From positions 148,403-212,402 of the forward strand of contig JBAZRH010000001.1 of the NCBI GenBank assembly GCA_041663045.1: DNA of 64,000 bases, given 5' to 3'. Position 1 is the stretch's first letter. The number at the start of each line of letters is the position of its first letter. Source of the stretch: Minisyncoccota bacterium (lineage in GTDB: Bacteria; Patescibacteriota; Minisyncoccia; Phycocordibacterales; GWA1-40-21). Of the stretch, positions 20,767-36,979 are shown in pieces. Position numbers and translations under genes: made by a program. The notes under the pieces were generated by a model that was not told the origin of the DNA, made no database searches, and saw nothing but the letters and a program-made list of their open reading frames with translations.

Positions 20767-21110
20767 TATATTATTAAAGGAGGCACTCTTATCTTTTAGT
20801 GTACCCGCATATTCTATCGCACCTTTGCATACTGAATCGCAAACTTTTTTTGCATTATCAAAAAAAACTTTATCCCCATTAATAATTTTATTTTTAATCT
20901 GACCTTGTACAAATGTGGCTAAAGATTTTTTAACAATAAAATTACCCCCCGCAAGCGAGCTCGTCCCTGTTTCCGGTATATTTAGCCCTAGTCTATCTGC
21001 TATCTCTTTATTATAACAATCTTCCCAAAAACAAGATGATAAAATATCATTTTTCCATAGACCATAAAATTTCTGATCATCTACATTAAAACTAGCTAAT
21101 TCAGGAGAGT

Positions 21111-22106
21111 TTAGTTTTTTTTTACTTCTTCAGCTTTTGCCTCTGCTCTTATTGAATCTTTATTTGTCAGCGTAGTGATGGGCCTGCTTTGTACTATATA
21201 AAATTTTCCTTTTTCAAAAGCCCATTCTATATCGCAAGGGAAACCATAATGATTCTCGATTTTCATTATTAAATCTGCGAATTCAAAGATTTGTTTTTCA
21301 GTGAGTACTTGAGATGATGCTTTTGGTTCAGAAATATCGATCCACTCATTGCCACCAGTTGAAACTCTATATAAACCTCTTGCTTGTGTTGAAATATTTG
21401 TATCGATAATTCTTCTCGGATCCTTCTCGACAACATATGAATCTGGTGTTATCTGTCCAGACACTATGGCTTCCCCAAGACCAAATCCAGCTTCTATAAT
21501 CATCTGATTTCTGTCTTCGGTAACAGGATGTACAGAGAAAGCTATACCGGAAACTTCAGAATTTACCATTTTTTGTATGACGACAGCGACTGAAATCTTT
21601 GTCTCGTGTAAATCTTTTTCAAATCTATAAAAAATAGCTCTCGGAGTGAAAAGTGATGCCCAGCAATGCTGAACTTTTTCTAAAACATTTTTCTCTTTAG
21701 TATTTAAATATGAATCAAGTTGTCCTGCCCAAGCGTTTTCTGCGCCGTCTTCTGCGGTGGCGGACGAACGGACGGCTACGAATTCGGTATCTAACTTTTT
21801 AAACTGCGACATTATCTCTTTCGCAATATTTTCTGGCATATCGGCGTTTTTGATAAGACTTTGAATTTTCTCTGAAGCGACTTCAACACTATTTATATCT
21901 TTGTGATTTACTGTATGTAAAACAGTATCTATTTCTTCAGAAAGATTTGCACCTTTTACGAATTCATCGAAAGTAGTTGAGAGGACGACAAAACCCGGCG
22001 GCACTGGTATTCCTGCCTGTGTCATTTCTCCAAGTGAGGCGCCTTTTCCACCGGCAATATCGGCATTGCTTTTATTCAATTCTCTGAAATGCAACGTTAA
22101 TTTCAT
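21111..22106 (-). CDS. PEP synthase / pyruvate-phosphate dikinase N-terminal ATP-grasp (nucleotide-binding) domain protein, stand-alone
   Basis: 331 aa; IAGGKGASLGEMTQAGIPVPPGFVV ... VAVRSSATAEDGAENAWAGQLDSY ... CDIEWAFEKGKFYIVQSRPIT covers Pfam PPDK_N end to end; no swivel or TIM-barrel domain; stop codon sits inside an A9 run. Confidence 0.85.
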   Translation of the reverse strand: MKLTLHFRELNKSNADIAGGKGASLGEMTQAGIPVPPGFVVLSTTFDEFVKGANLSEEIDTVLHTVNHKDINSVEVASEKIQSLIKNADMPENIAKEIMSQFKKLDTEFVAVRSSATAEDGAENAWAGQLDSYLNTKEKNVLEKVQHCWASLFTPRAIFYRFEKDLHETKISVAVVIQKMVNSEVSGIAFSVHPVTEDRNQMIIEAGFGLGEAIVSGQITPDSYVVEKDPRRIIDTNISTQARGLYRVSTGGNEWIDISEPKASSQVLTEKQIFEFADLIMKIENHYGFPCDIEWAFEKGKFYIVQSRPITTLTNKDSIRAEAKAEEVKKN

Positions 22107-22165
22107 ACTGGAAACTATAACAAATTATATATCACTTGGGAAGCTTATTTTTAGTGATAAAAGTG
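22107..22165 (-). promoter_or_regulatory. candidate extended -10 promoter for the PPDK_N gene
   Basis: minus-strand TGATATATAAT ~22 nt upstream of the ATG at 22106; weak -35. Confidence 0.3.
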
Positions 22166-22191
22166 AATAAAACATAGCTCAATTTTGCCTA

Positions 22192-22220
22192 TTGACTTTT
22201 ATATCTAAGTATGCTATCCT
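22192..22220 (+). promoter_or_regulatory. candidate sigma70-type promoter of the GC-rich island gene 1
   Basis: TTGACT-17 nt-TATCCT followed by AAGGAGG Shine-Dalgarno 7 nt before ATG at 22288. Confidence 0.3.
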
Positions 22221-22287
22221 TTCAGGCAGGATACAGGATTGGTACCTGTATGTGTAGAAAACGAAAACAACAGAAGGAGGCGTCAAA

Positions 22288-22923
22288 ATGACGCACAGCA
22301 AACGTAAACTGGTGGCGGTGTTTCAGAGACATGGTGCCACAAACAAAGCGCAAGCGGGTCAGCATGATCTTACCCGCACGCTAAGCGAGGAAGGACGGAA
22401 GCAGGCGGCGTTGATTGGGTCAAAGATCGGTTACAAAATTGACCTTATCATCTCGTCTGCTGCTGGGCGCGCGGTGGAAACAGCATGTATCACGGCACGG
22501 GCGGCGGGTCAGCTCCCGGATGGGGTTCAGCACTTCGCCGAAGATGTGCTTTATCCGCACGAGCATACCTATCCGATTTTGGACGCAGCGTTCAAGAAAA
22601 TCGGGTATGCGCCGCTCGCGAGCTATCTCCTCGACCCAAATGTGGTAAAGGAGACCGCAGCTTACGCGATACGTGCAATGGGCAGGATATGGGAAATCAT
22701 CAACGAGGCCGACTCCGGTCTCGAAGATGAAAAGCAGCCGTTTGTTGTGTTAATAACCTCACACGCCGTCTGCGCCAATATCCTGGCACGGAATATGCAA
22801 CTCGGTACCGACGCGACGCTTGAGGACCTCGTCCTTGTCGGCAGTACGTCAATGGATGCCGGGTCAGCGATCGTGATTGAGCTCGAGGATGACAAGTCCT
22901 CGGCCAAATATATTACGCCGTGA
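22288..22923 (+). CDS. histidine-phosphatase-superfamily protein, SixA-like (phosphohistidine phosphatase-like)
   Basis: 211 aa; RHG motif (VFQRHGAT), LISSAAGRAVETA and LITSHAV second-His motif in the order/spacing of E. coli SixA; strong AAGGAGG RBS; GC-rich codon usage unlike neighbours. Confidence 0.6.
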   Translation: MTHSKRKLVAVFQRHGATNKAQAGQHDLTRTLSEEGRKQAALIGSKIGYKIDLIISSAAGRAVETACITARAAGQLPDGVQHFAEDVLYPHEHTYPILDAAFKKIGYAPLASYLLDPNVVKETAAYAIRAMGRIWEIINEADSGLEDEKQPFVVLITSHAVCANILARNMQLGTDATLEDLVLVGSTSMDAGSAIVIELEDDKSSAKYITP

Positions 22924-23142: not shown

Positions 23143-23616
23143 GTGAGTGCAAATACAAAGCGGATTCTATGTGTGTGCTACGGCAACAGCGACAGGAGTC
23201 CGGCGATGGCGGCGGTACTCAACATGTATCTCAAGAACGCCGGGTACAAGACTTATTGTGAAAGTGCCGGCGTCGGGGAAAATGCTGCGAAAGGCGGTTC
23301 GGCTGCAAAGTTTGCGATTGACGCCTGTAGTCAGATTGGTCTCAATATCTCGGGTCACGACAAGCGTCGGACGACGACGCTCGATCTTAACAGCTACGAT
23401 CTTGTCGTCTGTGCAGACTGTTTGGTCGCCGAGATGCTCATCAAGCAAGGTTGCGACATCGGCAAGATATACAATGCCGAGATTCCCAATCCATGGCCGG
23501 TGAAGTTCAAAGCACAGTACACCGAGACATTCCAGCGAATCCTCGCCGCAATGTATCTCGTCGTGGACCGATACTTCGTCAACATGAATGAAGTGGACGG
23601 TCCGCAAGGTGGTTAA
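23143..23616 (+). CDS. low-molecular-weight protein phosphatase family protein (LMW-PTP / ArsC / YwlE-like)
   Basis: 157 aa; N-terminal P-loop ILCVCYGNSDRSPAMAA = C-x5-R-(S) signature of LMW-PTP/ArsC family; GC-rich. Confidence 0.6.
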   Translation: MSANTKRILCVCYGNSDRSPAMAAVLNMYLKNAGYKTYCESAGVGENAAKGGSAAKFAIDACSQIGLNISGHDKRRTTTLDLNSYDLVVCADCLVAEMLIKQGCDIGKIYNAEIPNPWPVKFKAQYTETFQRILAAMYLVVDRYFVNMNEVDGPQGG

Positions 23617-23637: not shown

Positions 23638-23673
23638 GAGCCCAACTGTAAAAAGTTGGGCTCTATTTTTTTT
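23638..23673 (+). terminator. rho-independent terminator
   Basis: GAGCCCAACT-gtaaaa-AGTTGGGCTC followed by TATTTTTTTTAT. Confidence 0.65.
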
Positions 23674-25114
23674 ATATTATTCTTATAATTCCCTTTTCGG
23701 CGTCTAGCTCTACTTTGTCGCCATCTTTCAATACTTTAGTTGCTATTTTTGTACCGATAATGCAAGGAATATTTAATTCACGAGAGATTATAGCGGCATG
23801 GCAAGTGATTCCGCCTTCATCTGTGATTATTCCCCCAGCACGTTTAATAAGAGGTGCAAAATCAGGAGTCGTCATACCTGTGACAATAATATCTCCATTA
23901 TCAAAATTATTCACATGAGAACTTTTTAGTACACGTACCTTCCCTACCACTTTTCCTTTATTCGCAACTTGTCCATGAATTTCCTTTATATCTTTATGAT
24001 CGGTTTTCCACGGCACATTTAACTTTATTAGAAGTTTTCTAGCATTGGAACCTTCATGATATGTACTTCCTTTATCAGAATTTGTTTCTATCACAATATC
24101 CATTCTGTTTTTTATATTTATGCTTATATCCTTTCCAGATATTGCGAGCCTTGCCAGTCTCGGGTCAAGATACCTTGCTTCATCTAAAGTCAGATTTAAT
24201 TTTGAAGCGGCCCATTTAAGGATTATATCATTGAAATAATAACAGATTTGGGCACTAAGCATCTTTCTGTCGTCCTGCATCAAAGACAGGTTTCTCATTA
24301 TCTTGAATAAATAGTTTGTCTCTTCAGAGAATTTATATTTCTCCTGATACTCTTCTTGTAGCAAAACAATATCAATGTTTTGTGAAGTTTTATTATATTC
24401 TTTTGATACCAAAGTTTCTTCAACTCTTTTTGATACAGTTTCTTCTGTCCAGACTATAGGTCCCACATATTCATATGGAAACCAGAAGTATTTATCAGAG
24501 AATATCTTTATGGCTTCTTTAGTATTGATATTTTCTAATCCATTGGACTTGGCTATTTTTAGCAGATTTTTAAATTCCTCTTCTTCTATCTGGCTATATG
24601 ATTTTTCTTGATGACTGACCATTATAGGTAATATTTTATGTGCCTCATCTATGCCGTATTCTTTAAGATGATTTAGTAATTGTCTTTCGGCCTCGGCTCC
24701 ACCAAAAAGCCACAGAATCATATTTTTACGCATCAATTCTTGATAAGTGATTATGAATTTATCAAAGAAATCTGGGAAGCTTTCAATATCTCTGTTTACA
24801 CAAGTATCGGCGAATTCTTTACATAAATCCACCGCTTTTTGCCCGGCTTCTATGCCCTCTTTTCTTATCTTCTCAAGATTATCTTTATTTTCCCAAAGTA
24901 TTTTAAAAGCCCCTTCATTTCTGTCTTTTGAGAATTCTTTTTCAACTACTGCTGTGAAGTGACCGTTTTCCCATATCTCTAGAGATATCCCTCTTTTAAT
25001 TTTTAAATATTCGCCAAGAGGCCAAGAAAAATATGCTGACAAAGGAAAAAGAGCTGGTATATACCTAGTACGCACCATTATCCAGTCTTCTGGTTTATAT
25101 TTCTTTTCAGGCAT
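23672..25114 (-). CDS. PEP-utilising-enzyme swivel domain protein, paralog F
   Basis: 480 aa; C-terminal [51 protein letters not shown]. Confidence 0.85.
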   Translation of the reverse strand: MPEKKYKPEDWIMVRTRYIPALFPLSAYFSWPLGEYLKIKRGISLEIWENGHFTAVVEKEFSKDRNEGAFKILWENKDNLEKIRKEGIEAGQKAVDLCKEFADTCVNRDIESFPDFFDKFIITYQELMRKNMILWLFGGAEAERQLLNHLKEYGIDEAHKILPIMVSHQEKSYSQIEEEEFKNLLKIAKSNGLENINTKEAIKIFSDKYFWFPYEYVGPIVWTEETVSKRVEETLVSKEYNKTSQNIDIVLLQEEYQEKYKFSEETNYLFKIMRNLSLMQDDRKMLSAQICYYFNDIILKWAASKLNLTLDEARYLDPRLARLAISGKDISINIKNRMDIVIETNSDKGSTYHEGSNARKLLIKLNVPWKTDHKDIKEIHGQVANKGKVVGKVRVLKSSHVNNFDNGDIIVTGMTTPDFAPLIKRAGGIITDEGGITCHAAIISRELNIPCIIGTKIATKVLKDGDKVELDAEKGIIRII

Positions 25115-25128: not shown

Positions 25129-26001
25129 CTATCCTTGAGCTATTTGTTCCACAACAGAGAGATCAATTTCTTCATCAATACTAAAATCATTTAGAGGTGT
25201 ATCGCTCTTTTTGCTATATTTCAAGTGTAATGTAGGTTTTTCTGATCCAGCTTTTGTAATAACATCCAATTCAAATCCTTCCGTTACATCAAAACCGGTA
25301 TTTTTTAATGCTTTTATAAGTTTATTTCTCTCCTCGATGCCTTTTGTCATTTCTACAACTTTCATCAAGAAACTTTCTGCAATACCTTGATGGGTAGCAA
25401 AGAATCTTTTCATTTCTGGTTCATATTTATCACTTTTTTCTTCGACGAGCTTATTCCATCTTGGAGCAATATTAAAATATTTTAAGACAATTTCCGCTAC
25501 GCCTTTTGCTTGACGAGAATATGTTAGCTGTCCTTCAAAACCTTGTTCTTTTGCCAGTGTGTCGCTTTGATCTGCCAAAAATTCCATGAATTTTCCTTTA
25601 GTGAAAGCGTCTATCGCTTGTTTTTCATACTCTGTCTTTCCAATAGAAAAGTCGAGACGTGAATCTACATTGAATTTTGAGCCGTAAGCCAAATCTTTAT
25701 CAATCTTAGTTTTTAGTTCTTCCAATGTCTCGTTACCGGTTATTTCGTCTTCTCCTCCAGCCATCACAAAACCTGCTGTTTCCCAGGTGCGTTCTTTTGT
25801 AGAGACGAAAGCCACAGATTGATCTATATCACTTCCCTTTTCAGCCTTGTTTTTAGCTTGCATACGGCCTCCTGGAGTAAGTCGGATTTGTTCATCTGTC
25901 TTTGTTTTATCTTTCTCTTTTTCGCCATGGCGGAAGAAGTTTAGAATTATTTCTGATTGATATTCTCTTATTGCCTCCGGACTTTTGATTTGTGATTCCA
26001 T
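25129..26001 (-). CDS. histidine-phosphatase-superfamily (PGAM/SixA-like) protein, native composition
   Basis: 290 aa; FFRHGEKE (RHG catalytic motif) near N-terminus and ATHQGIAE second His motif near C-terminus. Confidence 0.5.
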   Translation of the reverse strand: MESQIKSPEAIREYQSEIILNFFRHGEKEKDKTKTDEQIRLTPGGRMQAKNKAEKGSDIDQSVAFVSTKERTWETAGFVMAGGEDEITGNETLEELKTKIDKDLAYGSKFNVDSRLDFSIGKTEYEKQAIDAFTKGKFMEFLADQSDTLAKEQGFEGQLTYSRQAKGVAEIVLKYFNIAPRWNKLVEEKSDKYEPEMKRFFATHQGIAESFLMKVVEMTKGIEERNKLIKALKNTGFDVTEGFELDVITKAGSEKPTLHLKYSKKSDTPLNDFSIDEEIDLSVVEQIAQG

Positions 26002-26004
26002 ATT

Positions 26005-26865
26005 TTATTTATTATTTAATTTTTTACTATTAATCCAAGCTGCTAACCACTTAACATGAAAAGAAAAATCTTTTTCATTTCTACTATTGTCTTCGTATGG
26101 CCTTTTGCACACCACTCTCGGCGCTGCCATTATCCTTCCTCCAGAGAGCAGGATCGCTCTAAAGAGTTGATTTCCTACCATACCATTTACTGGAACAATG
26201 ACATTTGCACCGTCTTCTACGGCTAAGTCCAAATCAATAGACCAATTCTTTGCATCGTAACCGAGTTTCTTGAGTTCGGAGACAATCCACTCAGTATCTT
26301 CATATGTTTTATTTAAAATTCCTACAACACCATCTTTAATGTCTTTTTTCCTTTTATATGTCTCATGGCGTACGCCGGTGAAGACAGCTATTTTCGGTTC
26401 AACTCCCCACTTCTTTGTAAATTCTGCTATACCTTTTGCTATTTCAAATCTCTCTTCTTTATTCCAACCCTCTGGATTACTACAAAGGCCACAAAAGAGT
26501 TGATCTCCTTTTGGTGTTTCCATTAGGCCAGGATTAAGATCGAAGTGCTCACCCGTTATCTTTTTATAAGCATCGGCTGTTTTAAAATCATCAATTGTTC
26601 CTCTGATTATTCCCTCAACTTCATCGCTAGCCAGCATAGAGGCGATTTTTTGTTCAGGATTTTCATCAATAACTAATTTAAAGCCCTTTACGTCTTTTAT
26701 TGCGCCTGGGCCTACCAAAGTAATGTCTGCATACTCACTCATCTTGCTTAGGCAATCCAATATCTCTTTATCTGGAGTTGCCAAGCCAAAAGCAATATTT
26801 ACCCTGCCCTTCGCTGCAAGTTCTTCTACTTTTTTTGTGAAAGCCCCAAGTTTCTTCGTCGTCAT
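26005..26865 (-). CDS. PTA/PTB-family (phosphate acyltransferase-like) protein
   Basis: 286 aa; ADITLVGPG, SDEVEGIIRGTIDDFKTAD, LFCGLCSNPEG, EPKIAVFTG, VIVPVNGMVGNQLFRAILLSGGRIMAAP align motif-by-motif with the Pta/Ptb/PlsX fold. Confidence 0.45.
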   Translation of the reverse strand: MTTKKLGAFTKKVEELAAKGRVNIAFGLATPDKEILDCLSKMSEYADITLVGPGAIKDVKGFKLVIDENPEQKIASMLASDEVEGIIRGTIDDFKTADAYKKITGEHFDLNPGLMETPKGDQLFCGLCSNPEGWNKEERFEIAKGIAEFTKKWGVEPKIAVFTGVRHETYKRKKDIKDGVVGILNKTYEDTEWIVSELKKLGYDAKNWSIDLDLAVEDGANVIVPVNGMVGNQLFRAILLSGGRIMAAPRVVCKRPYEDNSRNEKDFSFHVKWLAAWINSKKLNNK

Positions 26866-26866: not shown

Positions 26867-27946
26867 TTATTGCTTTGTTTGTCCTTTTAATAATTGGTCA
26901 ATATCAAGACAGGTTTTTTCTATGAGAGAATGCATAATAGCCATCTTTTGTTCATTATAAGAAAAATCTTTCCAATCACCGCTTTTTGGTCTATCCATAT
27001 AAGCCCTTTCATTGCATTCAATCTGAAGCGCATTTACGCCCATATTTCTACCTGCTCCACCCCAGAATTTGACATTGTGAACACCTTTCATATAATAATT
27101 TCTGATAAATAATTCACCCTTAATATCCTCTGAAATTAATTTCTTTTCATCTTCCGGTAAAGATTCATAGTTTGTTTTCAGGGCTTTTTCAAACGCTTCT
27201 ATAATATCGTCATCGCAACCTTCTCCATCTCTCGTGCCCAAAATAAACATTGGCATCATCTCTGGATCAGGAATACCATAGTGATCATACCAAGTCTTTG
27301 TATCAGCTGTAACAGGAAAAGAATGTCCATCTACAAGAAGAATCCTCTCCTCTTTTCTATTCTGCCTTTTATCTGCCATAGCTCCGACAGCACCCATAAC
27401 AGTATTGTAATAAGGCAGATAATATCTCTCCGCCCAATTCTCTGCTTCTTCTGCGGTCGGTTGCATATCTTCTTTGTACATAGGGCCGAATTTTGCACCC
27501 TTTGTCCAAAGTATTGTGCCCGGAGCTTTCCCCTTCTCATACTTTTTATCCAAATCAAATTCTGGTGCTCTGTTTGGGTCGACGACAAACCTAGATATAC
27601 CAAACTTTACCCAAGGTATTGTCTTGCTTTTAAATATTTCGGGTGTTCCAAGATCTGTAAGCGCAAGAGTTTCTGTGCCTTCTTCTGTCAGCCTATCTTT
27701 TAAGCTTTCTGGAGCATACTCTCCGGCGTGTGGTAATCCAATAATAACATTTGGACAGCCGTCTCTTGCTATCGGGCTAGTATCACTTTCTACCGCTTCA
27801 TTACCAGTTATCTCTTCTTGCCTCATTTCTGGACGAGACGGTAAACCCAAAGCTTCAAGTGTATTGTAAACTTTTTCGAGTTTTTCTCTTCTTTCTGTTC
27901 GAGAGTCCGTATCTGCGAAAGGAAATTTTGGAGGATGTTCGGTCAT
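26867..27946 (-). CDS. N-formylglutamate amidohydrolase (FGase)-family zinc hydrolase-like protein
   Basis: 359 aa; GLPHAGEYAP, LLVDGHSFP, LQIECNERAYMD correspond to the three conserved FGase blocks. Confidence 0.45.
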   Translation of the reverse strand: MTEHPPKFPFADTDSRTERREKLEKVYNTLEALGLPSRPEMRQEEITGNEAVESDTSPIARDGCPNVIIGLPHAGEYAPESLKDRLTEEGTETLALTDLGTPEIFKSKTIPWVKFGISRFVVDPNRAPEFDLDKKYEKGKAPGTILWTKGAKFGPMYKEDMQPTAEEAENWAERYYLPYYNTVMGAVGAMADKRQNRKEERILLVDGHSFPVTADTKTWYDHYGIPDPEMMPMFILGTRDGEGCDDDIIEAFEKALKTNYESLPEDEKKLISEDIKGELFIRNYYMKGVHNVKFWGGAGRNMGVNALQIECNERAYMDRPKSGDWKDFSYNEQKMAIMHSLIEKTCLDIDQLLKGQTKQ

Positions 27947-28005
27947 ATTTTTAAATTATTTAATAATGTCAATTATATCACTATTTTTATCCATCTCAAT
28001 AGACA

Positions 28006-29697
28006 CTAGCTCAGAATTCTCACCGTCCCGTGATTTGCTCTTACTTCTATGAGATCTCCATCTTTGATCATTTGTGTAGCTCTTTGTGTACCGATAATGC
28101 AAGGTTTACCAAGTTCTCGTGAGACAATCGCCGCGTGACAGGTGATACCACCTTCATTTGTGACAATTGCGGAAGCTTTTTTCATAAGCTGGATAAATTC
28201 TGGACGAGTCATACCCGTGACCAATATTTCTCCCTCATTAAATTTGTGAAAGTCTTCTTGACCAAGAATGATACGGGCGATACCTTTTACATAACCCTGA
28301 CAAGCCACTTGTCCAGACAAAATCTTTTCCGGTGCTTGCCCGAGTATTCTCTTTTCCATTTCATCGGATATTGATTGAGCCTCGGCTCCCTCTATTATCT
28401 TATAACCGCCACCGACTGTGGAGATCATCATTCCGTGCTCGTATCTTTTCTTTAATTGATTTAAAGATATAAGTCCTTTGAGTACATTTGGCACTTCATC
28501 AAATACTATATGTTTAAGATATTCATAAGGAATACTGGCTTTTATCTCAATTGCTTTCAAGACATAGTGCATTGAGTGAATACCCATAAGGTTAATCTGT
28601 TTTCTATATTCTCTCCAAAAGACCAATTTCTGAAAGAAAAATAGTGGATTCTGTTTTAAATTGTGTTTCTTAAGAACAGCGTCGATATTAGCTTTAACCG
28701 TTTTTTCATATCTCTTAATTTCTTCACACTTCTTTTTCCAGTCTTTGTCGCAGAGACATTGTTCTACTTCGTCAAATATCTCATCTAGCGTTATGTGATT
28801 CATATGAGCGTAGTTTGATTTATAGTAATCAAAGTCCAATATATATTTAGCTACATCTTTTGATCTTGAGAGATATTCTTTTATCTTTGCCGGTTTCTGT
28901 TGGAGTTTATTTTTAATTATCTTTTTTACTATTTCATAAAGTTTCAATAGACGTTCATTGTTGAAAGTCATAACTTCAGGTGTGGTAAGTGTAGAGACTT
29001 CTTCTGCGGTAAGTGCAAATTGTCTTTTTATTTCCTCTGTCTTTTTTACATCAAAACCGGCGTCGAATGAATCTATAAACAAACTCATTTGCCAGAAGCC
29101 GGCATAAGCATCAAATATTTCTTTCGTAAAGCTGACGATTTCTTCCGCAGAATAATTTAATATTTCATCGGCAGAATGTGAGAGATATATATTCTTTATA
29201 GCGTTCGCGTGTATATTGAATTCATCGAATAATTTTTCTAACTCTTTTTTGTCATTATATCTTTTGTATACCTGCTTTGAGAAATCAAGCATTATCTTTT
29301 TGTCCCAATAGACTTTCATATAATTTCTCTTGAAGAAACCTAAGTGATGGGTAGTAAAATCGCCAAACCAGTCGGTTGGTTGACTTTCAAATCCTAAGAA
29401 TGCCGGAATAGCTGTAAAAGGGATAATGTCACCCTCTTGTCTATAAGGTTCGTAAAATGCTGTTGTAAGATCATGTGACGTCTGCACTTTCTTTTCTTCA
29501 GTTGAAATTTTGAAAAGGTCAGCGGGCTGTATTTTGTATTTTGAACAAAGCTTTTCTAATGTATCAAATTTGATGCCATCAATTTTATTGTGAAAAATAG
29601 CTGTGATGGTATTACGATTGAGACCAGTTTCCCTCGCAATGTCGGATATACTCTTGCCCATTTTCTCGGCTATCTCTTTTAATTTGATTGTTATCAT
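28006..29697 (-). CDS. HTH (XRE-family) DNA-binding domain fused to PEP-utilising swivel phosphohistidine domain
   Basis: Start re-set to MITIKLKEIAEKMGKSISDIARETGLNRNTITAIFHNK (classic XRE helix-turn-helix). C-terminal [30 protein letters not shown] swivel. Shared WREYRK motif in the middle domain. Confidence 0.75.
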   Translation of the reverse strand: MITIKLKEIAEKMGKSISDIARETGLNRNTITAIFHNKIDGIKFDTLEKLCSKYKIQPADLFKISTEEKKVQTSHDLTTAFYEPYRQEGDIIPFTAIPAFLGFESQPTDWFGDFTTHHLGFFKRNYMKVYWDKKIMLDFSKQVYKRYNDKKELEKLFDEFNIHANAIKNIYLSHSADEILNYSAEEIVSFTKEIFDAYAGFWQMSLFIDSFDAGFDVKKTEEIKRQFALTAEEVSTLTTPEVMTFNNERLLKLYEIVKKIIKNKLQQKPAKIKEYLSRSKDVAKYILDFDYYKSNYAHMNHITLDEIFDEVEQCLCDKDWKKKCEEIKRYEKTVKANIDAVLKKHNLKQNPLFFFQKLVFWREYRKQINLMGIHSMHYVLKAIEIKASIPYEYLKHIVFDEVPNVLKGLISLNQLKKRYEHGMMISTVGGGYKIIEGAEAQSISDEMEKRILGQAPEKILSGQVACQGYVKGIARIILGQEDFHKFNEGEILVTGMTRPEFIQLMKKASAIVTNEGGITCHAAIVSRELGKPCIIGTQRATQMIKDGDLIEVRANHGTVRILS

Positions 29698-29725
29698 AAA
29701 AATACTAATGCTTATAATAAGCACA

Positions 29726-29777
29726 AGTATAGCATATCCACATATAATTGCAAGTAGTTGCCTAGTGTACTAGGCAA
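29726..29777 (-). promoter_or_regulatory. candidate promoter (TTGCAA-16-TATACT) with adjacent 9-2-9 palindromic operator TTGCCTAGT-GT-ACTAGGCAA
   Basis: minus-strand -35 at 29748-29753, -10 at 29726-29731; perfect palindrome 29758-29777 immediately upstream of -35 and immediately downstream of the preceding gene stop. Confidence 0.4.
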
Positions 29778-30535: not shown

Positions 30536-31615
30536 TTAATTATTAATGATTTTTATTATACCATTGTTGGCATCAACCTCTACCATATCCCCGTCTTTTA
30601 ATACCTTTGTGGCAATCTTGGTACCAATGACACAGGGTTTTTTGAGTTCTCTTGAGATAATTGAGGCGTGGCACATTATTCCTCCTTCATCAGTGATTAA
30701 AGCGGAACATTTTACTATAGCTGGCATTATCGCTGGGCTTGATTGAAAAGATACGAGAATATCTCCTTCGTTAAACTTTTTCATATCATCTATAGAATTC
30801 ACAACCTTTACTCTACCTCGAGCCGTGCCAGCAAAAGCGACATTACCTCTTATCTCTTTTATATCTTTATCAATTTTTTCAGATAGTAGTGATGGATAAT
30901 TGTCTGTAGTATAGTCGAATTTCACCAGCAGTGGGTTTTTATCTAGTGTCATTGCACACCATTTTGCTCTTCTCTCCAACTCTGTTTTATCTACAGACTT
31001 CTCTCCATTAATAATCTTTCTTAATTCTTCTGGGTGTATACATTCTGCAAGCTCTTCAGAGATATTCAGTGTTTTTATTGCTGCATCGAGATATTTACTA
31101 ATTACGTTTTTTACTATTTGCGGGTAGCGAGTTTCTTTCTTTAATTCCTCGTACATCTCTAGTGTCTTACCAAACACTTCTCTATTTTCGCCATTTTCCA
31201 AAGAAGTATTAATCGCATACAATACCCAAAAAGGTAATATAGTGCAGTAACCTAGATTCTCATTAAGTATTTCCATAACCTCATTGTAAGAATGTATATC
31301 TAGTTTAACTTTGTCATCAATATGTTTTAATAAAAGTTCATCTGCTTTCGTATTCAGTCTCTTGGCTTTTTCATACCAAGCTGTAAATGGTTTATTGTTT
31401 TTCTTGATCTGATTTAAAATATTTAATACAACTGCATCAATATTACTTTTTGTGGCGCTAAGGATACAAATACTATCTCTGTAAGCAAAAACAGATTCAG
31501 TAAAACCTATTCCTGTGGTGTTTTCTAAACATGTTTTGTGCTGCCAAATTGAGACAATTAAAGCAAAAAGCGTCATCTTCCTTTCAGCAAATATCTTTAA
31601 ATCTTGATTTTTCAT
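30536..31615 (-). CDS. PEP-utilising-enzyme swivel domain protein, paralog H
   Basis: 359 aa; [53 protein letters not shown]. Confidence 0.85.
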   Translation of the reverse strand: MKNQDLKIFAERKMTLFALIVSIWQHKTCLENTTGIGFTESVFAYRDSICILSATKSNIDAVVLNILNQIKKNNKPFTAWYEKAKRLNTKADELLLKHIDDKVKLDIHSYNEVMEILNENLGYCTILPFWVLYAINTSLENGENREVFGKTLEMYEELKKETRYPQIVKNVISKYLDAAIKTLNISEELAECIHPEELRKIINGEKSVDKTELERRAKWCAMTLDKNPLLVKFDYTTDNYPSLLSEKIDKDIKEIRGNVAFAGTARGRVKVVNSIDDMKKFNEGDILVSFQSSPAIMPAIVKCSALITDEGGIMCHASIISRELKKPCVIGTKIATKVLKDGDMVEVDANNGIIKIINN

Positions 31616-31616
31616 C

Positions 31617-33098
31617 TTATTTTATAATCTTAATCACACCGTTATTTGCATCCACTTCCACCGTATCACCGCTTTTTAAGACTTTAGAAGCGAATTTTGT
31701 ACCTATTATACAGGGTTTCTTTAGCTCCCTTGCCACAATAGCCGCGTGGCAAGTGACGCCACCCTCATCTGTGACAAAAGCTGCGGCCTTTTTCATAAGG
31801 CTTAGAAAGTCTGGGCGAGTCATACCTGTAACTAGAATATCCCCTTCATTAAACTCTCCTGGGTTATGTGCGTCCATAACTACCCTGACAATACCTTTTA
31901 CAAAACCCTTTTGTGCTACCGTACCTTTGATCTCTTTTGTGTCTTTTAAGTTTTCAATTTTAGGATTGATTTTTTCCCAGAGTTTTTCTGCCTCTTCACC
32001 ATAATACATCTTTTCTTGCCCCAGAATATCATAGAAATAAATACACTCTTCCTTTCTTCCGTTAATATTAAAGTCATCTATATTTTTATTTCCTTCTACT
32101 ATCTTGTCTAATTCCCAAGGTAGTAATAAAGAAGCGTCGTCGTATTTTAGATTATATTTATCGCATAACCATTCCAAGTGAGCACCGAGATAATGATTTG
32201 CAATTAGATTGTACTCTTTCCTCCTATCTACCCACCAAGCGATTTTACCCAGCCAAAGTATTTTCTCATAGTCTTCCGGATCGAGTATATTCTTAATCTT
32301 AATATCCTCACACTCTTTTTGATGTACTTTTGCATAGTTTTCAAGTTCCTCAAGATTTTCTTTGGGGTTGAGTTTTATATCCTTCAGAATTTCAAGCAAT
32401 TGTTGAGCGAAGAATTCAATAGACAAAGCCGAAACGTTTTTATAATTATTTTGTATCCAGTGAAAAGACTTTTGAATCTTTGTCAGACCTTTCACAATCT
32501 TTGAATCAGTCAAAATGTCTTCCAGAGATGTATGGCCGTCTCGATTACAAGATAGTGCAAGTTTAAACAATTCTTGCCTGTAACGATTCAGAAAAGTCTC
32601 CCCATATGGTTCAATTAATATTCGTAAGGATTTTTCTTGGTCAGGATATTTTTTCAACATTTCGTTGAAGAAAGTCTCACCATATACAAGCACCCCGTCT
32701 ATAACTACAGCCGAAATGTACTCGGCATCATAGACCTTAATAAAATTATTAAAATTATTATGTAAATATTCCTCACCTTCTCTCTGTATATCTTCAATAA
32801 AGTCCTTAAAATCTTTCTCATCCTTTAAAAAATCTTTGTATACTTTGTCTAAAATATCTCTATTATTTATAACCTTCTCAAACGATTTATGATATTCATT
32901 TTGATCTGCCAAAAACTGTGCTTCGGCACCAGATTTTGTAATCCTTCCTCCACAAAAGCTTATCAAATAGTACCCCGGGTATCTTTCATAGGTACCTTTT
33001 GTCCATTGTTTGAGTGCATAGCCTATAATATATGGCGAGATTCCACTATTTAGTATCAGCCACTCTTTTACACTTTTAATTCTTTGATCAATTTCCAT
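31617..33098 (-). CDS. PEP-utilising-enzyme swivel domain protein, paralog I
   Basis: 493 aa; [52 protein letters not shown]; WWVDRRKEY motif. Confidence 0.85.
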   Translation of the reverse strand: MEIDQRIKSVKEWLILNSGISPYIIGYALKQWTKGTYERYPGYYLISFCGGRITKSGAEAQFLADQNEYHKSFEKVINNRDILDKVYKDFLKDEKDFKDFIEDIQREGEEYLHNNFNNFIKVYDAEYISAVVIDGVLVYGETFFNEMLKKYPDQEKSLRILIEPYGETFLNRYRQELFKLALSCNRDGHTSLEDILTDSKIVKGLTKIQKSFHWIQNNYKNVSALSIEFFAQQLLEILKDIKLNPKENLEELENYAKVHQKECEDIKIKNILDPEDYEKILWLGKIAWWVDRRKEYNLIANHYLGAHLEWLCDKYNLKYDDASLLLPWELDKIVEGNKNIDDFNINGRKEECIYFYDILGQEKMYYGEEAEKLWEKINPKIENLKDTKEIKGTVAQKGFVKGIVRVVMDAHNPGEFNEGDILVTGMTRPDFLSLMKKAAAFVTDEGGVTCHAAIVARELKKPCIIGTKFASKVLKSGDTVEVDANNGVIKIIK

Positions 33099-33099
33099 A

Positions 33100-34440
33100 T
33101 TATGAAATTATACGAATGATTCCAACATTTGCATCGACTTCTACCAGATCGCCATCTTTAAAAACTTGTGTAGCTATCTTTGTGCCTATTATACAAGGTT
33201 TTTTCATTTCTCTGGCAACAATTGCAGCGTGAGAAGTGATTCCTCCTTGATTAGTGACGAATGCAGCCGCCTTTTTCATTCCAACAATATAATCTGGCAT
33301 TGTCTCTGGAGATACGATAACATCTCCCTCATTTATTTTCTTTAGGTCATTAATGTCCTCTATAATTTTTACAAAACCTTTAACCTTTCCTTTAAATGCA
33401 ATGTTGCCGTGAACTATCTTTTGATCTGTAGTTAATTTTGGTTCAAATATTTTTAATACTTGCTTAAGTTCATCTCCAAAATATAGCTCAGAGACACCAT
33501 TTATGTATGATACTCCACTACATTCAAGACCGTTCTGATCCAGACGTTTTTTTGTATCTATTGGTAAAATATTTTTTTCTGTAAGATAGATTATTTCTTC
33601 CGGAGTTAGAACACCCAAATCTTCCCGTCTTAGGCTATGTCTTAATGCTACATTGTCTAGAGCCGCCCACTGATAATAAACCATTTTACCCGCAAGCTCT
33701 GCGTGAAGAGATCTAAAATAAATAAGTTTTTGTAAGATAATTATTTTTGATTTAATCTCTTTATCCAATGATTTAATATCTATATTTGGCGCACTTTCTT
33801 TGTCCATTGTCTTCCGTAATTCTTTCTGTATATCAAGTATAGTCAATCCATTTCCCGATAGACGTCCAGTTCCAAACCATTCAAAATCTTTTATAAAATC
33901 GTCAATACTAATCTTACTCATTTTTAGCTGATAAAGAGCCTCCTTATATTGCATTGTATATGTGTGTTTAAATGGAATAAGAATTTTTGCAAATTGATCT
34001 GCTGTCAAGCCGCTTTGAGCCGCGATCTCCGGGACAAGTTTTTCTAGACCTTTGTCACAAAAATGTATTAACATTGTAATACATCCGTTGTCTTTAAGTA
34101 ATTTCATACAGGAAACTACATCCCCATCTCTTTTCAGATTATTAGCTAGATATTCAATTTTTTCTGCGAGATTAAAGAGCTTATCAAACCAGGAACTGTC
34201 ATTAAGGAATTTGTCTATAATAAATTTGTCAAAGATTCTGTGGTCAGCATCGCGAGTGTATAAATATCCATCTACACTTAAATACCAATCTCTAAACTCG
34301 GGTGGTAATGATAAATCTTTGAATATCTGTGTTAGAGAAAAACCGGAATATTGGGCATTACAAAAGACATTACTCTTCCATCTACCCCAGAATCTCCACT
34401 CACTAAAATCTGGAATTGAACTATGCATATCCTTTATCAT
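33100..34440 (-). CDS. PEP-utilising-enzyme swivel domain protein, paralog J
   Basis: 446 aa; [52 protein letters not shown]. Confidence 0.85.
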   Translation of the reverse strand: MIKDMHSSIPDFSEWRFWGRWKSNVFCNAQYSGFSLTQIFKDLSLPPEFRDWYLSVDGYLYTRDADHRIFDKFIIDKFLNDSSWFDKLFNLAEKIEYLANNLKRDGDVVSCMKLLKDNGCITMLIHFCDKGLEKLVPEIAAQSGLTADQFAKILIPFKHTYTMQYKEALYQLKMSKISIDDFIKDFEWFGTGRLSGNGLTILDIQKELRKTMDKESAPNIDIKSLDKEIKSKIIILQKLIYFRSLHAELAGKMVYYQWAALDNVALRHSLRREDLGVLTPEEIIYLTEKNILPIDTKKRLDQNGLECSGVSYINGVSELYFGDELKQVLKIFEPKLTTDQKIVHGNIAFKGKVKGFVKIIEDINDLKKINEGDVIVSPETMPDYIVGMKKAAAFVTNQGGITSHAAIVAREMKKPCIIGTKIATQVFKDGDLVEVDANVGIIRIIS

Positions 34441-34442
34441 AA

Positions 34443-35534
34443 TTACTTTATTATTCTAACCACCCCCTTATCCGCATCTACTTCCACCATATCTCCGTCT
34501 TTTAATACCTGCGTAGCGATTTTTGTTCCTATAATGCAAGGCTTCCTCATCTCGCGAGCTACTATTGCGGCATGGCTTAATATTCCCCCCTCGTCTGTAA
34601 TTATCGCAGAACTTTCTTTTATTATATAGATATCGTCAGGGTGTGTCATACTAGTAACTAGTATGTAACCTTTCTCTACAAGATGGTCTGAATTATTTCC
34701 TTGTATCTTATTAAATACTCTACCTTTAACTATCCCTTTGTATGCAGGGAAACCGTTAAGCTCTTTCTTTATGTCTTTTACTAAATAAAACTCTTCATAT
34801 ATTTTTCCAATCAAGTCTTTATCTGTCGAAGTCTCTTCGTATCCATCTATCGTCAATAAATAAAGATATTTCTCTCTTCTTAAATTTAAGACCTTTAGTA
34901 TGTCTATAATATTAAGTCTATTTCCAAGATAATCACCCATTTCCTTTTGCGTCAGATATCTCAGTAAATCTCCGTCAAAATTATTCATTTCCCCTATTTT
35001 GTGAGTGTATTCCTTTATCTTACTTTCTACTTTAGGATAAAATTTAGCAACGATATCTCTTTGTCTTGAAATAGATTCCACATCGATTGTCGTTAGTTTC
35101 CCTTTACTTGCTTCATTACCGATATATCTCCAGAAGCAATTATATATTCCAATACATGTCATATAATTAGAATATATGTTATTTATTAATTTCAAACTTA
35201 ATACTGGATCGTTATCATCCATCTTTTTAAATCTCTCTAAACATTCATTGAATGTGTTTATTGATGGTGTAAATACTATATCTCCAAGGTCTTTATAATT
35301 ATTATCAATGAATTCGCCGGTTTTTTGAGCGATCATCTCTTCATTAAAGAGTGTATGAAATTTTCCATCGCCCCCTATTCCGCAAACTGCATCATACGAA
35401 TATCCTAGTATTTTATACATTGGTTTTGTATATCCATAGAAAATACATGAAAGTGAATAAAGAGGCATCTCCCTTTGAGAAGTTGGTTTTAAACCTTTAT
35501 CTTTGATAATCTTTTCTATTTTAAAGAAATCCAT
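34443..35534 (-). CDS. PEP-utilising-enzyme swivel domain protein, paralog K
   Basis: 363 aa; [52 protein letters not shown]. Confidence 0.85.
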   Translation of the reverse strand: MDFFKIEKIIKDKGLKPTSQREMPLYSLSCIFYGYTKPMYKILGYSYDAVCGIGGDGKFHTLFNEEMIAQKTGEFIDNNYKDLGDIVFTPSINTFNECLERFKKMDDNDPVLSLKLINNIYSNYMTCIGIYNCFWRYIGNEASKGKLTTIDVESISRQRDIVAKFYPKVESKIKEYTHKIGEMNNFDGDLLRYLTQKEMGDYLGNRLNIIDILKVLNLRREKYLYLLTIDGYEETSTDKDLIGKIYEEFYLVKDIKKELNGFPAYKGIVKGRVFNKIQGNNSDHLVEKGYILVTSMTHPDDIYIIKESSAIITDEGGILSHAAIVAREMRKPCIIGTKIATQVLKDGDMVEVDADKGVVRIIK

Positions 35535-35537
35535 TTA

Positions 35538-36977: not shown

Positions 36978-36979
36978 AT

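What the first reader, a model, noticed from the sequence alone, without database searches (positions are those of the whole stretch)
28006..29777. XRE-type helix-turn-helix fused to a swivel phosphohistidine domain, with a perfect palindromic operator next to its own promoter
Seen in sequence:
- The N-terminal 60 aa form a classic XRE HTH (KLKEIAEKMGKSISDIARETGLNRNTITAIFHNK). The C-terminus is a full swivel domain with His (ITCHAAIV). The middle domain carries the array-wide WREYRK motif.
- 5' of the gene: TTGCAA-16-TATACT, and immediately beyond it the 9-2-9 palindrome TTGCCTAGT GT ACTAGGCAA.

Inference: a transcription factor whose DNA binding could be switched by phosphorylation on the swivel His, charged by the same ATP-grasp module and reset by the SixA-like phosphatase. 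That would make it the regulator of the locus, likely autoregulated through the palindrome.
Basis: partly seen in the sequence, partly recalled or inferred. Interest (0 to 1): 0.65.

Follow-up and report, generated by a model that had tools for sequence, protein, structure and literature searches.

The report
DNA-binding dikinase subunit with conserved operator
A gene from an ultra-small (Patescibacteria/CPR) bacterium fuses a DNA-binding domain to the phosphate-carrying half of a rifampin-phosphotransferase-like kinase. The palindrome beside its promoter is conserved in front of the same gene in most other CPR genomes examined, so it is very probably the protein's own operator, marking an uncharacterised but directly testable enzyme-regulator family.

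Summary
The minus-strand gene 28006-29697 (563 aa) carries an XRE-type HTH above Pfam thresholds and a C-terminal phosphohistidine swivel domain. Orthologues confirm the start codon.

The middle domain is not anonymous. It matches the rifampin-binding domain of rifampin phosphotransferase (RPH), and WREYRK aligns with RPH's catalytic Arg666/Glu667/Lys670. The protein is therefore an HpeH/PpsA-type subunit of a split "two-component dikinase" with an HTH added. Its ATP-grasp partner is the stand-alone gene 21111-22106.

The palindrome is the strongest result. Scoring only the window's own 18-bp dyad, 19 matches of at least 13/16 lie within 150 nt upstream of 28 orthologues (4.2 kb). None lies in 425.7 kb of flanking DNA. 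All six orthologous loci fetched afterwards also carry it.

Many orthologues have a second site at or over the transcription start, which suggests autorepression.

Not supported:
- "Regulator of the whole locus": no other promoter region in the window has the site.
- An "array-wide" WREYRK motif: the paralogues carry only a degenerate version.

The phospho-switch idea remains untested. I found no paper describing this fusion. It is best classed as a new variant of known kinds.

The parts
28006..29697 (-). CDS, 563 aa: XRE HTH, flexible linker, RPH-type substrate-binding domain, phosphohistidine swivel domain
   Evidence: ORF. Pfam. 100% identical to P0001, and >100 full-length orthologues. AF2 model with pLDDT 94.1.
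29503..29685 (-). HTH_26 / XRE DNA-binding domain (aa 5-65). T24, R28 and N29 are invariant; N27 and T30 are nearly invariant.
   Evidence: Pfam HTH_26 1.9e-13, HTH_19 and HTH_3. Conservation. Structural match to the SaPI2 Stl repressor HTH.
29449..29502 (-). Linker (aa 66-83). Low model confidence over aa 66-75, so presumably flexible.
   Evidence: pLDDT below 50 for residues 66-75. Poorly conserved in the alignment.
28333..29448 (-). Middle domain (about aa 84-455), homologous to the rifampin-binding domain of RPH and to HpeH
   Evidence: The six best Foldseek PDB hits are all RPH-Lm, E 1e-11 to 7e-10, with 554-585 aligned columns. The family profile aligns positions 348-556 with RPH-Lm 658-866.
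28600..28617 (-). W361-R362-E363-Y364-R365-K366, equivalent to RPH-Lm Y665-R666-E667-Y668-P669-K670 (acceptor-site catalytic residues)
   Evidence: HMM alignment. Role of Arg666/Glu667/Lys670 from PMC4844700. R362 and K366 are invariant and E363 is >=90% conserved in 100 orthologues.
28009..28329 (-). Swivel phosphohistidine domain (aa 457-563). Catalytic His521 is at nt 28135-28137 in [12 protein letters not shown].
   Evidence: PF00391 6.4e-24. PEP synthase and RPH swivel matches. The GGxT[S/C]HAA motif is described in PMC12167813. H521, G516 and G517 are invariant.
29726..29753 (-). Sigma-70-type promoter: -35 TTGCAA (29753-29748), 16 nt, TGc + -10 TATACT (29731-29726)
   Evidence: Sequence. 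Consensus scan 9/12 with TG. TTGACA-16/17-TATAAT-like promoters sit in the equivalent position in orthologues.
29758..29777 (.). Operator: perfect dyad TTGCCTAGT-GT-ACTAGGCAA (core 29759-29776). Centre is about -48 from the predicted transcription start.
   Evidence: Unique in the window. Family consensus TGMCTAGT-NN-ACTAGKCA. 19 matches >=13/16 in 4.2 kb upstream of orthologues against 0 in 425.7 kb. 6 of 6 loci fetched afterwards carry it.
29709..29723 (.). Second, 15-bp palindrome TGCTTATTATAAGCA between the -10 and the ATG. Possibly a degenerate proximal operator; unverified.
   Evidence: Its centre is 51.5 bp from the distal dyad, where orthologues have a proximal site 52, 62-64 or 71-72 bp away. 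Its half-site spacing is 3 bp shorter, and it scores below 10/16 against the consensus.
21111..22106 (-). Stand-alone ATP-grasp (PPDK_N) protein, 331 aa: the presumed in-trans partner that loads His521
   Evidence: PF01326 3e-99. NCBIfam alignments to the N-termini of PEP synthase and RPH. PPDK_N genes lie in the same operon as orthologues in L010, L012, L201, L203 and L204.
25129..26001 (-). Histidine-phosphatase-superfamily protein (290 aa), downstream on the same strand
   Evidence: PF00300 2.8e-08. His_Phos_1 genes recur beside orthologues.
22288..22923 (+). Second histidine-phosphatase-superfamily protein (211 aa), divergent from the ATP-grasp gene
   Evidence: PF00300 2.7e-10. Best NCBIfam hit is SixA, far below cutoff.
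27972..27999 (-). Separate promoter-like site TTGAGA-16-TATAAT (with TG) in the 59-nt gap before the next gene (FGase-family, 26867-27946)
   Evidence: Consensus scan 11/12. No terminator-like site was found in this gap.

Best explanation
The gene encodes a bifunctional protein: the substrate-binding and phosphocarrier subunit of a split, RPH/HpeH-type small-molecule dikinase, with an added N-terminal XRE helix-turn-helix.

Shown:
- The three-domain architecture.
- Conservation of the donor His521 motif and of the acceptor-site R362/E363/K366.
- A separate ATP-grasp gene in the locus.
- An 18-bp dyad, TGMCTAGT-NN-ACTAGKCA, found specifically in front of this gene in most of the CPR genomes examined.

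Inferred:
- The protein binds the dyad as a dimer and controls its own promoter. Repression is most likely, because many orthologues carry a second dyad 5, 6 or 7 helical turns downstream over the transcription start, and one (L205) has its only dyad 2 nt after the -10.
- In many genomes the same promoter also drives the ATP-grasp partner, paralogous swivel subunits and a phosphatase (His_Phos_1 or HD).
- The ATP-grasp protein loads the beta-phosphate of ATP onto His521. The swivel domain then docks on the middle domain and passes the phosphate to a bound small molecule.
- Ligand occupancy and/or the phosphorylation state of His521 changes swivel docking or the monomer-dimer balance of the body. 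This alters operator occupancy through the flexibly tethered HTH, so that the presence of substrate induces expression. That would make it a 'trigger enzyme' type of one-component regulator.
For: - Domains.
- RPH homology of the middle domain.
- WRExxK aligns with RPH-Lm R666/E667/K670. Those residues are needed for the second phosphotransfer (PMC4844700).
- Invariance of R362, K366, H521, G516 and G517 in 100 orthologues.
- Split dikinases exist and work in trans: HpeHI, CreHI and PpsAB. HpeH is a monomer/dimer mixture (PMC12167813).
- In RPH the interface between the swivel and the rifampin-binding domain responds to ligand.
- Operator statistics: 19 versus 0 using the window-only consensus; 23 versus 1 using the degenerate consensus; 6 of 6 later loci.
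- Site geometry relative to the -35, -10 and start codon, and site-to-site spacings of 52, 62-64 and 71-72 bp.
- Operon contexts: L010, L012 and L204 (HTH gene followed by a PPDK_N fusion); L203 (HTH-HD-PPDK_N); L201 (HTH, His_Phos_1, two further genes, PPDK_N); L001 is syntenic with the window.
Against: - No DNA-binding, phosphorylation or ligand data exist.
- The window has only the distal dyad, centred near -48, upstream of a weak -35. That position is also compatible with activation.
- The HTH is joined by a disordered linker, so any allosteric coupling must act through oligomerisation, which is unproven.
- 9 to 10 of the 28 GTDB orthologue upstream regions lack a good match to the dyad. 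L004 has no match; L019, L021 and L023 carry a different dyad.
- The consensus degeneracy and the weak proximal sites (10-12/16) were chosen after looking at the data, so the helical-phasing pattern is only suggestive.
- No other target of the regulator was found.
Confidence: 0.6

Rival explanations
1. Pure phospho-switch regulator of the whole array. The middle and swivel domains are only a receiver. His521 is charged by the ATP-grasp protein and reset by a SixA-like phosphatase. The phosphorylated or unphosphorylated form controls all promoters of the dikinase locus.
For: Conserved His motif and a separate ATP-grasp gene. His_Phos_1 genes lie beside orthologues in the window, L004, L012, L201, L204 and L206, and an HD hydrolase in L203. 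A PPDK-derived protein acting as a regulatory histidine kinase has a precedent in VadK (PMC13400623).
Against: No operator or half-sites occur at the other promoter regions of the window or in 425 kb of orthologue flanks. The acceptor-site R-E-x-x-K is invariant, which argues for a real small-molecule acceptor. The SixA assignment is far below threshold. The phosphatases could equally act on the phosphorylated product.
Confidence: 0.2
2. Same protein and same operator, but the protein is an activator of its own weak promoter rather than a repressor. It would bind just upstream of the -35 and recruit RNA polymerase.
For: In the window the only good dyad ends 4-5 nt upstream of a non-consensus -35 (TTGCAA), with its centre near -48. 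The distal site has the same position in many orthologues.
Against: Many orthologues have consensus TTGACA-17-TATAAT promoters, which need no activator. They also have a second dyad between the -10 and the ATG. In L205 the sole dyad starts 2 nt after the -10. Those are classic repressor geometries.
Confidence: 0.2
3. The palindrome has nothing to do with the HTH protein. It is a terminator or RNA hairpin of the upstream gene (stop at 29785), or a chance palindrome.
For: It starts 7 nt after the upstream stop codon. The window holds 7 perfect palindromes of this size.
Against: No T-tract follows it, and it was not called by the terminator scan. The sequence itself, not just the pairing, is conserved upstream of orthologues whose upstream neighbours are unrelated or divergent genes. 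The enrichment is 19 versus 0, and 6 of 6 later loci carry it.
Confidence: 0.03
4. The HTH does not regulate transcription. It merely tethers the dikinase subunit to DNA, or serves as a protein-interaction module.
For: The flexible linker makes the HTH an independent module. Nothing experimental is known.
Against: A sequence-specific dyad is fixed at the promoter of the protein's own gene, with promoter-flanking pairs of sites. That is the signature of autoregulation. No such sites occur elsewhere in the DNA examined.
Confidence: 0.05

Closest known systems
HpeH / PpsA / CreH: the substrate-binding + swivel subunit of two-component small-molecule dikinases (HpeHI, phenylphosphate synthase PpsAB, CreHI). 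PMC12167813.
   Same: RPH-type substrate-binding domain followed by a C-terminal swivel domain with GGxT[S/C]HAA. The ATP-grasp is encoded as a separate protein (HpeI here corresponds to 21111-22106). The acceptor-site R-E-x-x-K is conserved.
   Different: The known subunits have no DNA-binding domain, and their genes are controlled by separate regulators. Their substrates are phenolics in aromatic catabolism. Here the organism is a reduced-genome Patescibacterium, the substrate is unknown, and the window holds about 19 paralogous genes (22 swivel units).
Rifampin phosphotransferase RPH-Lm (PDB 5FBS/5FBT/5FBU/5HV1-3). PMC4844700.
   Same: Best structural match over the middle and swivel domains. 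The profile alignment covers RPH residues 658-866, including Arg666/Glu667/Lys670 and the catalytic His.
   Different: RPH is a single chain with the ATP-grasp domain fused at the N-terminus and has no HTH. Sequence identity is only about 16-18%. No NCBIfam RPH model comes near its cutoff, so this is not an RPH orthologue and nothing suggests rifamycin as the substrate.
XRE/Cro-C1 family repressors with C-terminal effector domains, for example SaPI2 Stl (PDB 8Q86), and small YozG-type HTH_26 proteins
   Same: The HTH fold and sequence family. A palindromic operator at its own promoter, and autoregulation as the default logic.
   Different: The effector domain here is a dikinase phosphocarrier module. 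I found no description of that combination.
Histidine-phosphorylated transcription regulators of the PTS (PRD-containing LicT/MtlR-type), and the PPDK-derived regulatory kinase VadK (PMC13400623)
   Same: The concept: a phosphohistidine relay that uses swivel-type chemistry and feeds into regulation.
   Different: PRD regulators are phosphorylated on PRD domains by HPr or EIIB and do not contain a swivel domain (background knowledge). VadK has no DNA-binding domain and did not regulate transcription of its pathway (section title). Neither shares the domain architecture seen here.

Membership tests
Two-component small-molecule dikinase, HpeH/PpsA-type subunit | C-terminal swivel phosphohistidine domain with the GGxT[S/C]HAA[I/V] motif | tested here: met
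   PF00391 6.4e-24, aa 486-557. GGITCH521AAIVSR. Invariant G516, G517 and H521. Motif definition from PMC12167813.
Two-component small-molecule dikinase, HpeH/PpsA-type subunit | RPH-type (rifampin-binding-domain-like) substrate-binding domain N-terminal to the swivel | tested here: met
   The top six Foldseek PDB hits are all RPH-Lm, 554-585 aligned columns, E 1e-11 to 7e-10. The profile match extends about 100 residues into the rifampin-binding domain. TM-scores are low (0.30-0.37) because of differing domain arrangement. No per-domain superposition was possible.
Two-component small-molecule dikinase, HpeH/PpsA-type subunit | Acceptor-site catalytic residues equivalent to RPH Arg666/Glu667/Lys670 | tested here: met
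   R362/E363/K366 align with R666/E667/K670. They are invariant or nearly invariant in 100 orthologues.
Two-component small-molecule dikinase, HpeH/PpsA-type subunit | ATP-grasp (PPDK_N) component encoded as a separate polypeptide in the same locus | tested here: met
   21111-22106, PF01326 3e-99, 331 aa with no other domain. PPDK_N genes lie downstream of orthologues in L201 and L203 (stand-alone) and in L010, L012 and L204 (fused to their own swivel units).
Two-component small-molecule dikinase, HpeH/PpsA-type subunit | ATP-dependent phosphorylation of a small molecule through a His~P intermediate | not testable with these tools
   Needs biochemistry. The substrate is unknown.
XRE-family autoregulated transcription factor | Cro/C1-type helix-turn-helix above family thresholds | tested here: met
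   HTH_26 50.8 bits (cutoff 22), HTH_19 33.9 (30.2), HTH_3 27.3 (23).
XRE-family autoregulated transcription factor | Palindromic operator at the promoter of its own gene, conserved with the protein | tested here: met
   19 of the 29 upstream regions (28 GTDB orthologues plus the window) have a site >=13/16, as do 6 of 6 loci fetched later, against essentially none elsewhere.
XRE-family autoregulated transcription factor | Sequence-specific DNA binding and an effect on transcription | not testable with these tools
   Needs EMSA, footprinting or a reporter assay.
Rifampin phosphotransferase (RPH) proper | Single chain ATP-grasp + rifampin-binding domain + swivel, scoring above the NCBIfam RPH models | tested here: not met
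   No ATP-grasp domain in this protein. NF041857 scores 69.7 bits against a cutoff of 999, and NF000283 56.3 against 1700, over the swivel domain only.
PEP synthase / PPDK | C-terminal PEP/pyruvate-binding TIM-barrel domain and a central swivel | tested here: not met
   Only the swivel region aligns. There is no PEP-utilizers_C domain. The database name 'PEP-utilizing enzyme' is only a domain-level label.
SixA-type phosphohistidine phosphatase (neighbouring genes 22288-22923 and 25129-26001) | Score above the SixA equivalog model | tested here: not met
   TIGR00249 scores 23.8 bits against a cutoff of 74.5 for 22288-22923, and gives no hit for 25129-26001. Only membership of the His_Phos_1 superfamily is established.

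The most novel reading that the evidence does not exclude
The swivel phosphohistidine domain is used here as a signalling device. The occupancy of His521 is set by an ATP-grasp loader, by a small-molecule acceptor bound in the RPH-like pocket, and by a dedicated phosphatase. That occupancy directly gates operator binding by the fused HTH. This would be a third, previously unrecognised route from phosphohistidine to transcription, alongside His-Asp two-component systems and PTS/PRD regulators. It would be conserved across the Patescibacteria, where it controls a dikinase module that some lineages have expanded into arrays of about 20 paralogous genes, possibly to trap or detoxify host-derived metabolites.
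Probability: 0.25. Interest if true: 0.8.

Novelty: new variant of a known kind. Interest (0 to 1): 0.62.

Why it matters
Very few transcription factors of Patescibacteria (CPR) have a known operator, ligand class or logic. This work provides three things:
- A conserved regulator family: 34 clusters at 50% identity and more than 100 at 90% identity.
- A defined 18-bp operator.
- A concrete biochemical hypothesis: a dikinase subunit that also binds DNA.

All the parts can be expressed in E. coli, so the hypothesis is directly testable without culturing the organism.

It also extends the recently recognised two-component small-molecule dikinases (HpeHI, PpsAB, CreHI) beyond aromatic catabolism, into a lineage where they are hugely expanded. 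It would be the first case I could find of such a subunit fused to a DNA-binding domain. If phosphohistidine on a swivel domain gates DNA binding, that is a new signalling principle.

Tried and rejected
- **Metagenome scan for the dyad.** I scanned metagenome contigs for the exact dyad TGMCTAGTNNACTAGKCA to find further regulon members. None of them encodes an HTH-swivel gene, so these are chance or unrelated palindromes and the result is uninformative.
- **Second operators in the window.** I looked for further operators or half-sites in the window's other promoter regions and for near-matches to the 20-mer. None was found.
- **Terminator reading.** The palindrome was considered as a terminator of the upstream gene and rejected.
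- **Defence-system check.** PADLOC gave nothing relevant.
- **Sequence-only PDB search.** Searching the single protein found only the HTH and the swivel domain. The family profile and the structural model were needed to place the middle domain.
- **Literature.** Searches for the fusion or for the CPR expansion found no description. This covers open-access literature only.
- **Recognition helix versus operator variant.** The NRNT helix is invariant, so the A/C variation in the half-site is unexplained. Only the Magasanikbacteria clade (L019, L021, L023; ISQETG in place of IARETG) has a clearly different dyad, and three related genomes are too few to count as covariation.
- **Genome-wide regulon scan.** This could not be done, because only 64 kb of the 428,695-bp contig and flanks of up to 10 kb on each side of the orthologues were available.
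Full report
**1. What is at the coordinates**

The finding lies on the minus strand. The mechanical ORF is 28006-29724 with a GTG start. The real start is the ATG at 29697 (MITIKLKEIAEK..., 563 aa).

A sigma-70-type promoter lies upstream: TTGCAA (29753-29748), a 16-nt spacer, then TGc-TATACT (29731-29726). This places the transcription start near 29719, downstream of the GTG.

More than 100 full-length orthologues of 555-572 aa align from residue 1. In many of them an in-frame stop lies only 6-36 nt upstream of the ATG.

There is no Shine-Dalgarno sequence. The next gene downstream lacks one too, by direct reading of the sequence, so this is not evidence against the start.

Pfam gives HTH_26 (aa 5-65, E 1.9e-13), HTH_19 and HTH_3, all above their curated cutoffs. 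It also gives the PEP-utilizers mobile (swivel) domain at aa 486-557, E 6.4e-24.

The palindrome TTGCCTAGT-GT-ACTAGGCAA is at 29758-29777, 4 nt from the -35 hexamer and 7 nt after the stop of the upstream gene. It has no other copy in the window even at 3 mismatches.

**2. What the protein is**

The protein is identical to a database entry from a 428,695-bp contig of a Candidatus Paceibacterota MAG, named only 'PEP-utilizing enzyme'. Housekeeping genes flank the array in the window (YchF, MnmA, AlaRS, RpoA, S4).

A sequence search of the PDB recognises only the HTH and the swivel domain. An AlphaFold2 model built on 100 orthologues is very confident (mean pLDDT 94.1). The single disordered stretch is at residues 66-75, between the HTH and the rest.

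The six best Foldseek PDB matches are all crystal structures of rifampin phosphotransferase RPH-Lm. Their alignments span 554-585 columns, covering the middle as well as the swivel domain.

A profile of the family aligns positions 348-556 with RPH-Lm residues 658-866. In that alignment W361-R362-E363-Y-R-K366 falls on Y665-R666-E667-Y-P-K670. In RPH, Arg666, Glu667 and Lys670 form the network that positions the phosphohistidine and the acceptor hydroxyl for the second phosphotransfer (PMC4844700).

In the 100-orthologue alignment R362, K366, H521, G516 and G517 are invariant. E363 and T519 are conserved in at least 90% of sequences. The His motif [12 protein letters not shown] matches the GGxT[S/C]HAA signature of this enzyme class (PMC12167813).

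The protein has no ATP-grasp domain. A 331-aa protein consisting only of that domain is encoded at 21111-22106 (PF01326, E 3e-99).

This split is known. In HpeHI, CreHI and phenylphosphate synthase PpsAB, one polypeptide is the ATP-grasp. The other carries the rifampin-binding-like domain and the swivel domain, and they act in trans (PMC12167813).

The focal protein is therefore an HpeH/PpsA-type subunit with an XRE HTH added at the N-terminus. It is not an RPH orthologue or a PEP synthase. All NCBIfam models score far below cutoff and only over the swivel domain.

**3. The palindrome is a conserved operator**

A scan of one genome per GTDB species, using an alignment of the N-terminal 260 residues, returned 28 orthologous loci. 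All are Patescibacteria-type contigs. The remaining 52 hits were only small stand-alone HTH proteins.

Their upstream regions carry the same dyad. Examples:
- TTTGCCTAGTAAACTAGGCAAA (L007)
- TGACTAGTATACTAGTCA (L005)
- TGACTAGTTTACTAGTCA (L009)
- TGCTTAGTATACTAAGCA (L016)

I scored only the 16 specified positions of the window's own dyad, with no information taken from the orthologues. Matches of at least 13/16 number 19 in the 150 nt upstream of the 28 genes (4.2 kb in total). None occurs in the other 425.7 kb of those loci.

With the degenerate consensus TGMCTAGT-NN-ACTAGKCA the count is 23 against 1.

As a later check I fetched six further orthologous loci (L201-L206). All six have a dyad of at least 14/16 between -53 and -91 from the start codon. 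Apart from proximal sites at -27 and -29, they have no match of 13/16 or better elsewhere.

The HTH is unusually conserved. T24, R28 and N29 are invariant, and N27 and T30 nearly so. This fits a conserved operator.

The exceptions are informative. L004 has no match. The three Magasanikbacteria orthologues (L019, L021, L023) differ in helix 2 (ISQETG in place of IARETG) and carry another dyad, TTTTTGTAAT-N6-ATTACAAAAA, in the same place.

Within the window alone the palindrome would not be compelling: 7 palindromes of this size are present against 1.75 expected. The comparative evidence makes the case.

**4. Geometry and likely sign of regulation**

The distal dyad usually ends 5-8 nt upstream of a TTGACA-like -35.

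Many orthologues have a second, weaker dyad between the -10 and the ATG. The start-to-start distances cluster at 52, 62-64 and 71-72 bp, roughly 5, 6 and 7 helical turns. Several of those proximal sites score only 10-12/16 and were picked after inspection, so the phasing is suggestive rather than proven.

In L205 the only dyad begins 2 nt after the -10.

Sites flanking or covering the core promoter indicate autorepression. In the window only the distal site is a good match.

A 15-bp palindrome, TGCTTATTATAAGCA (29709-29723), sits where a proximal site would be, with its centre 51.5 bp from the distal centre. Its half-sites are 3 bp closer together, so I list it as unverified. Activation from the distal site cannot be excluded for this particular promoter.

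**5. What it controls**

The operator is found only at the protein's own promoter.
- No half-site occurs in the window's other promoter regions, including 49426-49969 and 20767-21110. Region 22107-22287 has one half-site with one mismatch.
- The 59-nt gap downstream of the gene contains its own promoter-like site, TTGAGA-16-TATAAT with TG, at 27999-27972. No terminator-like site was found in that gap.

The claim that it regulates the whole array is therefore not supported here.

In other genomes the gene is the first of an operon:
- It is followed within 5-25 nt by a PPDK_N fusion protein (L010, L012, L204) or by a swivel paralogue (L014, L019, L021, L023, L027). In L017, L022 and L024 the downstream swivel paralogue ORF overlaps the end of the HTH gene.
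- L203 has a minimal HTH-HD-PPDK_N arrangement.
- L201 has HTH, His_Phos_1, two further genes, then PPDK_N.
- L001 is syntenic with the window: HTH, FGase-family, Mmp4-like, swivel, PPDK_N.

Elsewhere the gene is monocistronic among unrelated neighbours (L002, L011, L015, L016, L028, L202).

In L201 and L203 the HTH protein is the only swivel protein near the stand-alone ATP-grasp. That supports the two proteins being a functional pair.

Histidine-phosphatase-superfamily genes recur nearby: the window (two), L004, L012, L201, L204 and L206. None reaches the SixA model threshold. They may act on His~P or on the phosphorylated product.

**6. Mechanism**

Shown:
- The architecture.
- Intact donor and acceptor catalytic residues.
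- A separate ATP-grasp gene.
- A family-specific operator.

Inferred:
- A dimer binds the dyad and represses the promoter.
- The ATP-grasp protein loads His521.
- The swivel domain docks on the RPH-like domain and phosphorylates a bound small molecule.
- Ligand binding and/or the His~P state changes swivel docking or the monomer-dimer balance, and so changes operator occupancy.

Two published observations make this coupling plausible. In RPH the interface between the swivel and the rifampin-binding domain responds to ligand. HpeH is a monomer-dimer mixture. Because the HTH hangs on a disordered linker, any coupling is more likely to work through oligomerisation than through a rigid-body change.

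My confidence is about 0.85-0.9 for the architecture and the operator. It is about 0.75 for the dikinase-subunit role and about 0.35 for the specific switch.

**7. Comparison and novelty**

The closest known systems are:
- HpeH/PpsA/CreH, which have the same enzyme module but no HTH.
- RPH, which has the same fold in a single chain.
- XRE repressors such as SaPI2 Stl, which share only the HTH.
- PTS/PRD regulators and VadK, which share only the concept of phosphohistidine-linked regulation.

Five literature searches found no description of an HTH-dikinase fusion or of the CPR expansion.

The family is compact and appears confined to Patescibacteria-type contigs. An exhaustive search of 1.84 billion representatives with residues 1-300 found 34 clusters (at 50% identity) at E <= 1e-30. 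A few records are titled as archaeal or gammaproteobacterial MAGs, which are probably binning or labelling errors.

I class it as a new variant of known kinds. The interest is moderately high because it yields an operator, a partner and a testable switch for a lineage whose regulation is almost unknown.

Noticed in passing
window 13172-20766, 23672-25114, 30536-49425 (all minus strand): About 19 paralogous genes (22 swivel units, including a 996-aa double and a 1218-aa triple). Each has a variable N-terminal domain plus a PEP-utilizers swivel domain. They occupy roughly 29 kb of the window and are served by a single stand-alone ATP-grasp gene (21111-22106). This is an extreme expansion of HpeH-type dikinase subunits in a reduced genome. 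The acceptor-site motif is degenerate in many copies.
   Followed up: partly
window 26005-26865 (-): A 286-aa protein with no Pfam hit but a sub-threshold match to methanogenesis marker protein Mmp4/MtxX (TIGR03270, E 1.9e-21, 76 bits against a cutoff of 190). It is 63% identical to, and syntenic with, its counterpart next to the FGase-family gene in L001.
   Followed up: partly
window 27972-27999 (-): A near-consensus promoter-like site, TTGAGA-16-(TG)TATAAT, lies in the 59-nt gap between the HTH gene and the FGase-family gene. The downstream genes may therefore be transcribed independently of the operator-controlled promoter.
   Followed up: no
window 34647-34665: Perfect palindrome CATACTAGT-A-ACTAGTATG inside a swivel paralogue gene. 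It has the same CTAGT/ACTAG core as the operator but 1-nt spacing and different flanks. Probably chance.
   Followed up: no
L019, L021, L023, upstream of the orthologue (about -62 to -115 from the start): Magasanikbacteria orthologues (495 aa; helix 2 reads ISQETG) carry a different dyad, TTTTTGTAAT-N6-ATTACAAAAA, just upstream of a TTGACA -35. This may be a change of specificity within the family.
   Followed up: partly
L206 9300-10991: A second HTH-swivel paralogue (563 aa) lies 1.6 kb downstream of the orthologue in the same locus. Its upstream region lacks the dyad.
   Followed up: no
L012 11714-16531; L010 11683-13704; L007 14252-16306; L204 7699-9720: In other genomes the ATP-grasp is fused in cis to one swivel unit (673-684 aa) or three (1605 aa). 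In L010, L012 and L204 this fusion is encoded directly downstream of the HTH-swivel gene, so split and fused forms coexist in this lineage.
   Followed up: partly
window 9157-10014 (-): An unusual fusion of an ATP-cone domain with an Mrr-type restriction endonuclease domain. It lies next to a PD-(D/E)XK/Cas4-like nuclease gene (8347-9156).
   Followed up: no
L001, L005, L007, L008, L013, L016, L018, L022, L025; protein P0022: Contigs carrying this Patescibacteria-type locus are titled 'archaeon GW2011_AR5', 'uncultured Gammaproteobacteria bacterium' or 'Candidatus Bathyarchaeia archaeon' in the public records. These are likely binning or labelling errors.
   Followed up: no
window 23143-23616 (+) and 22288-22923 (+): A low-molecular-weight phosphotyrosine-phosphatase-family gene and a His_Phos_1 gene lie on the opposite strand, in the middle of the dikinase array. 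L012 has the same pair of families near its HTH-swivel gene.
   Followed up: partly
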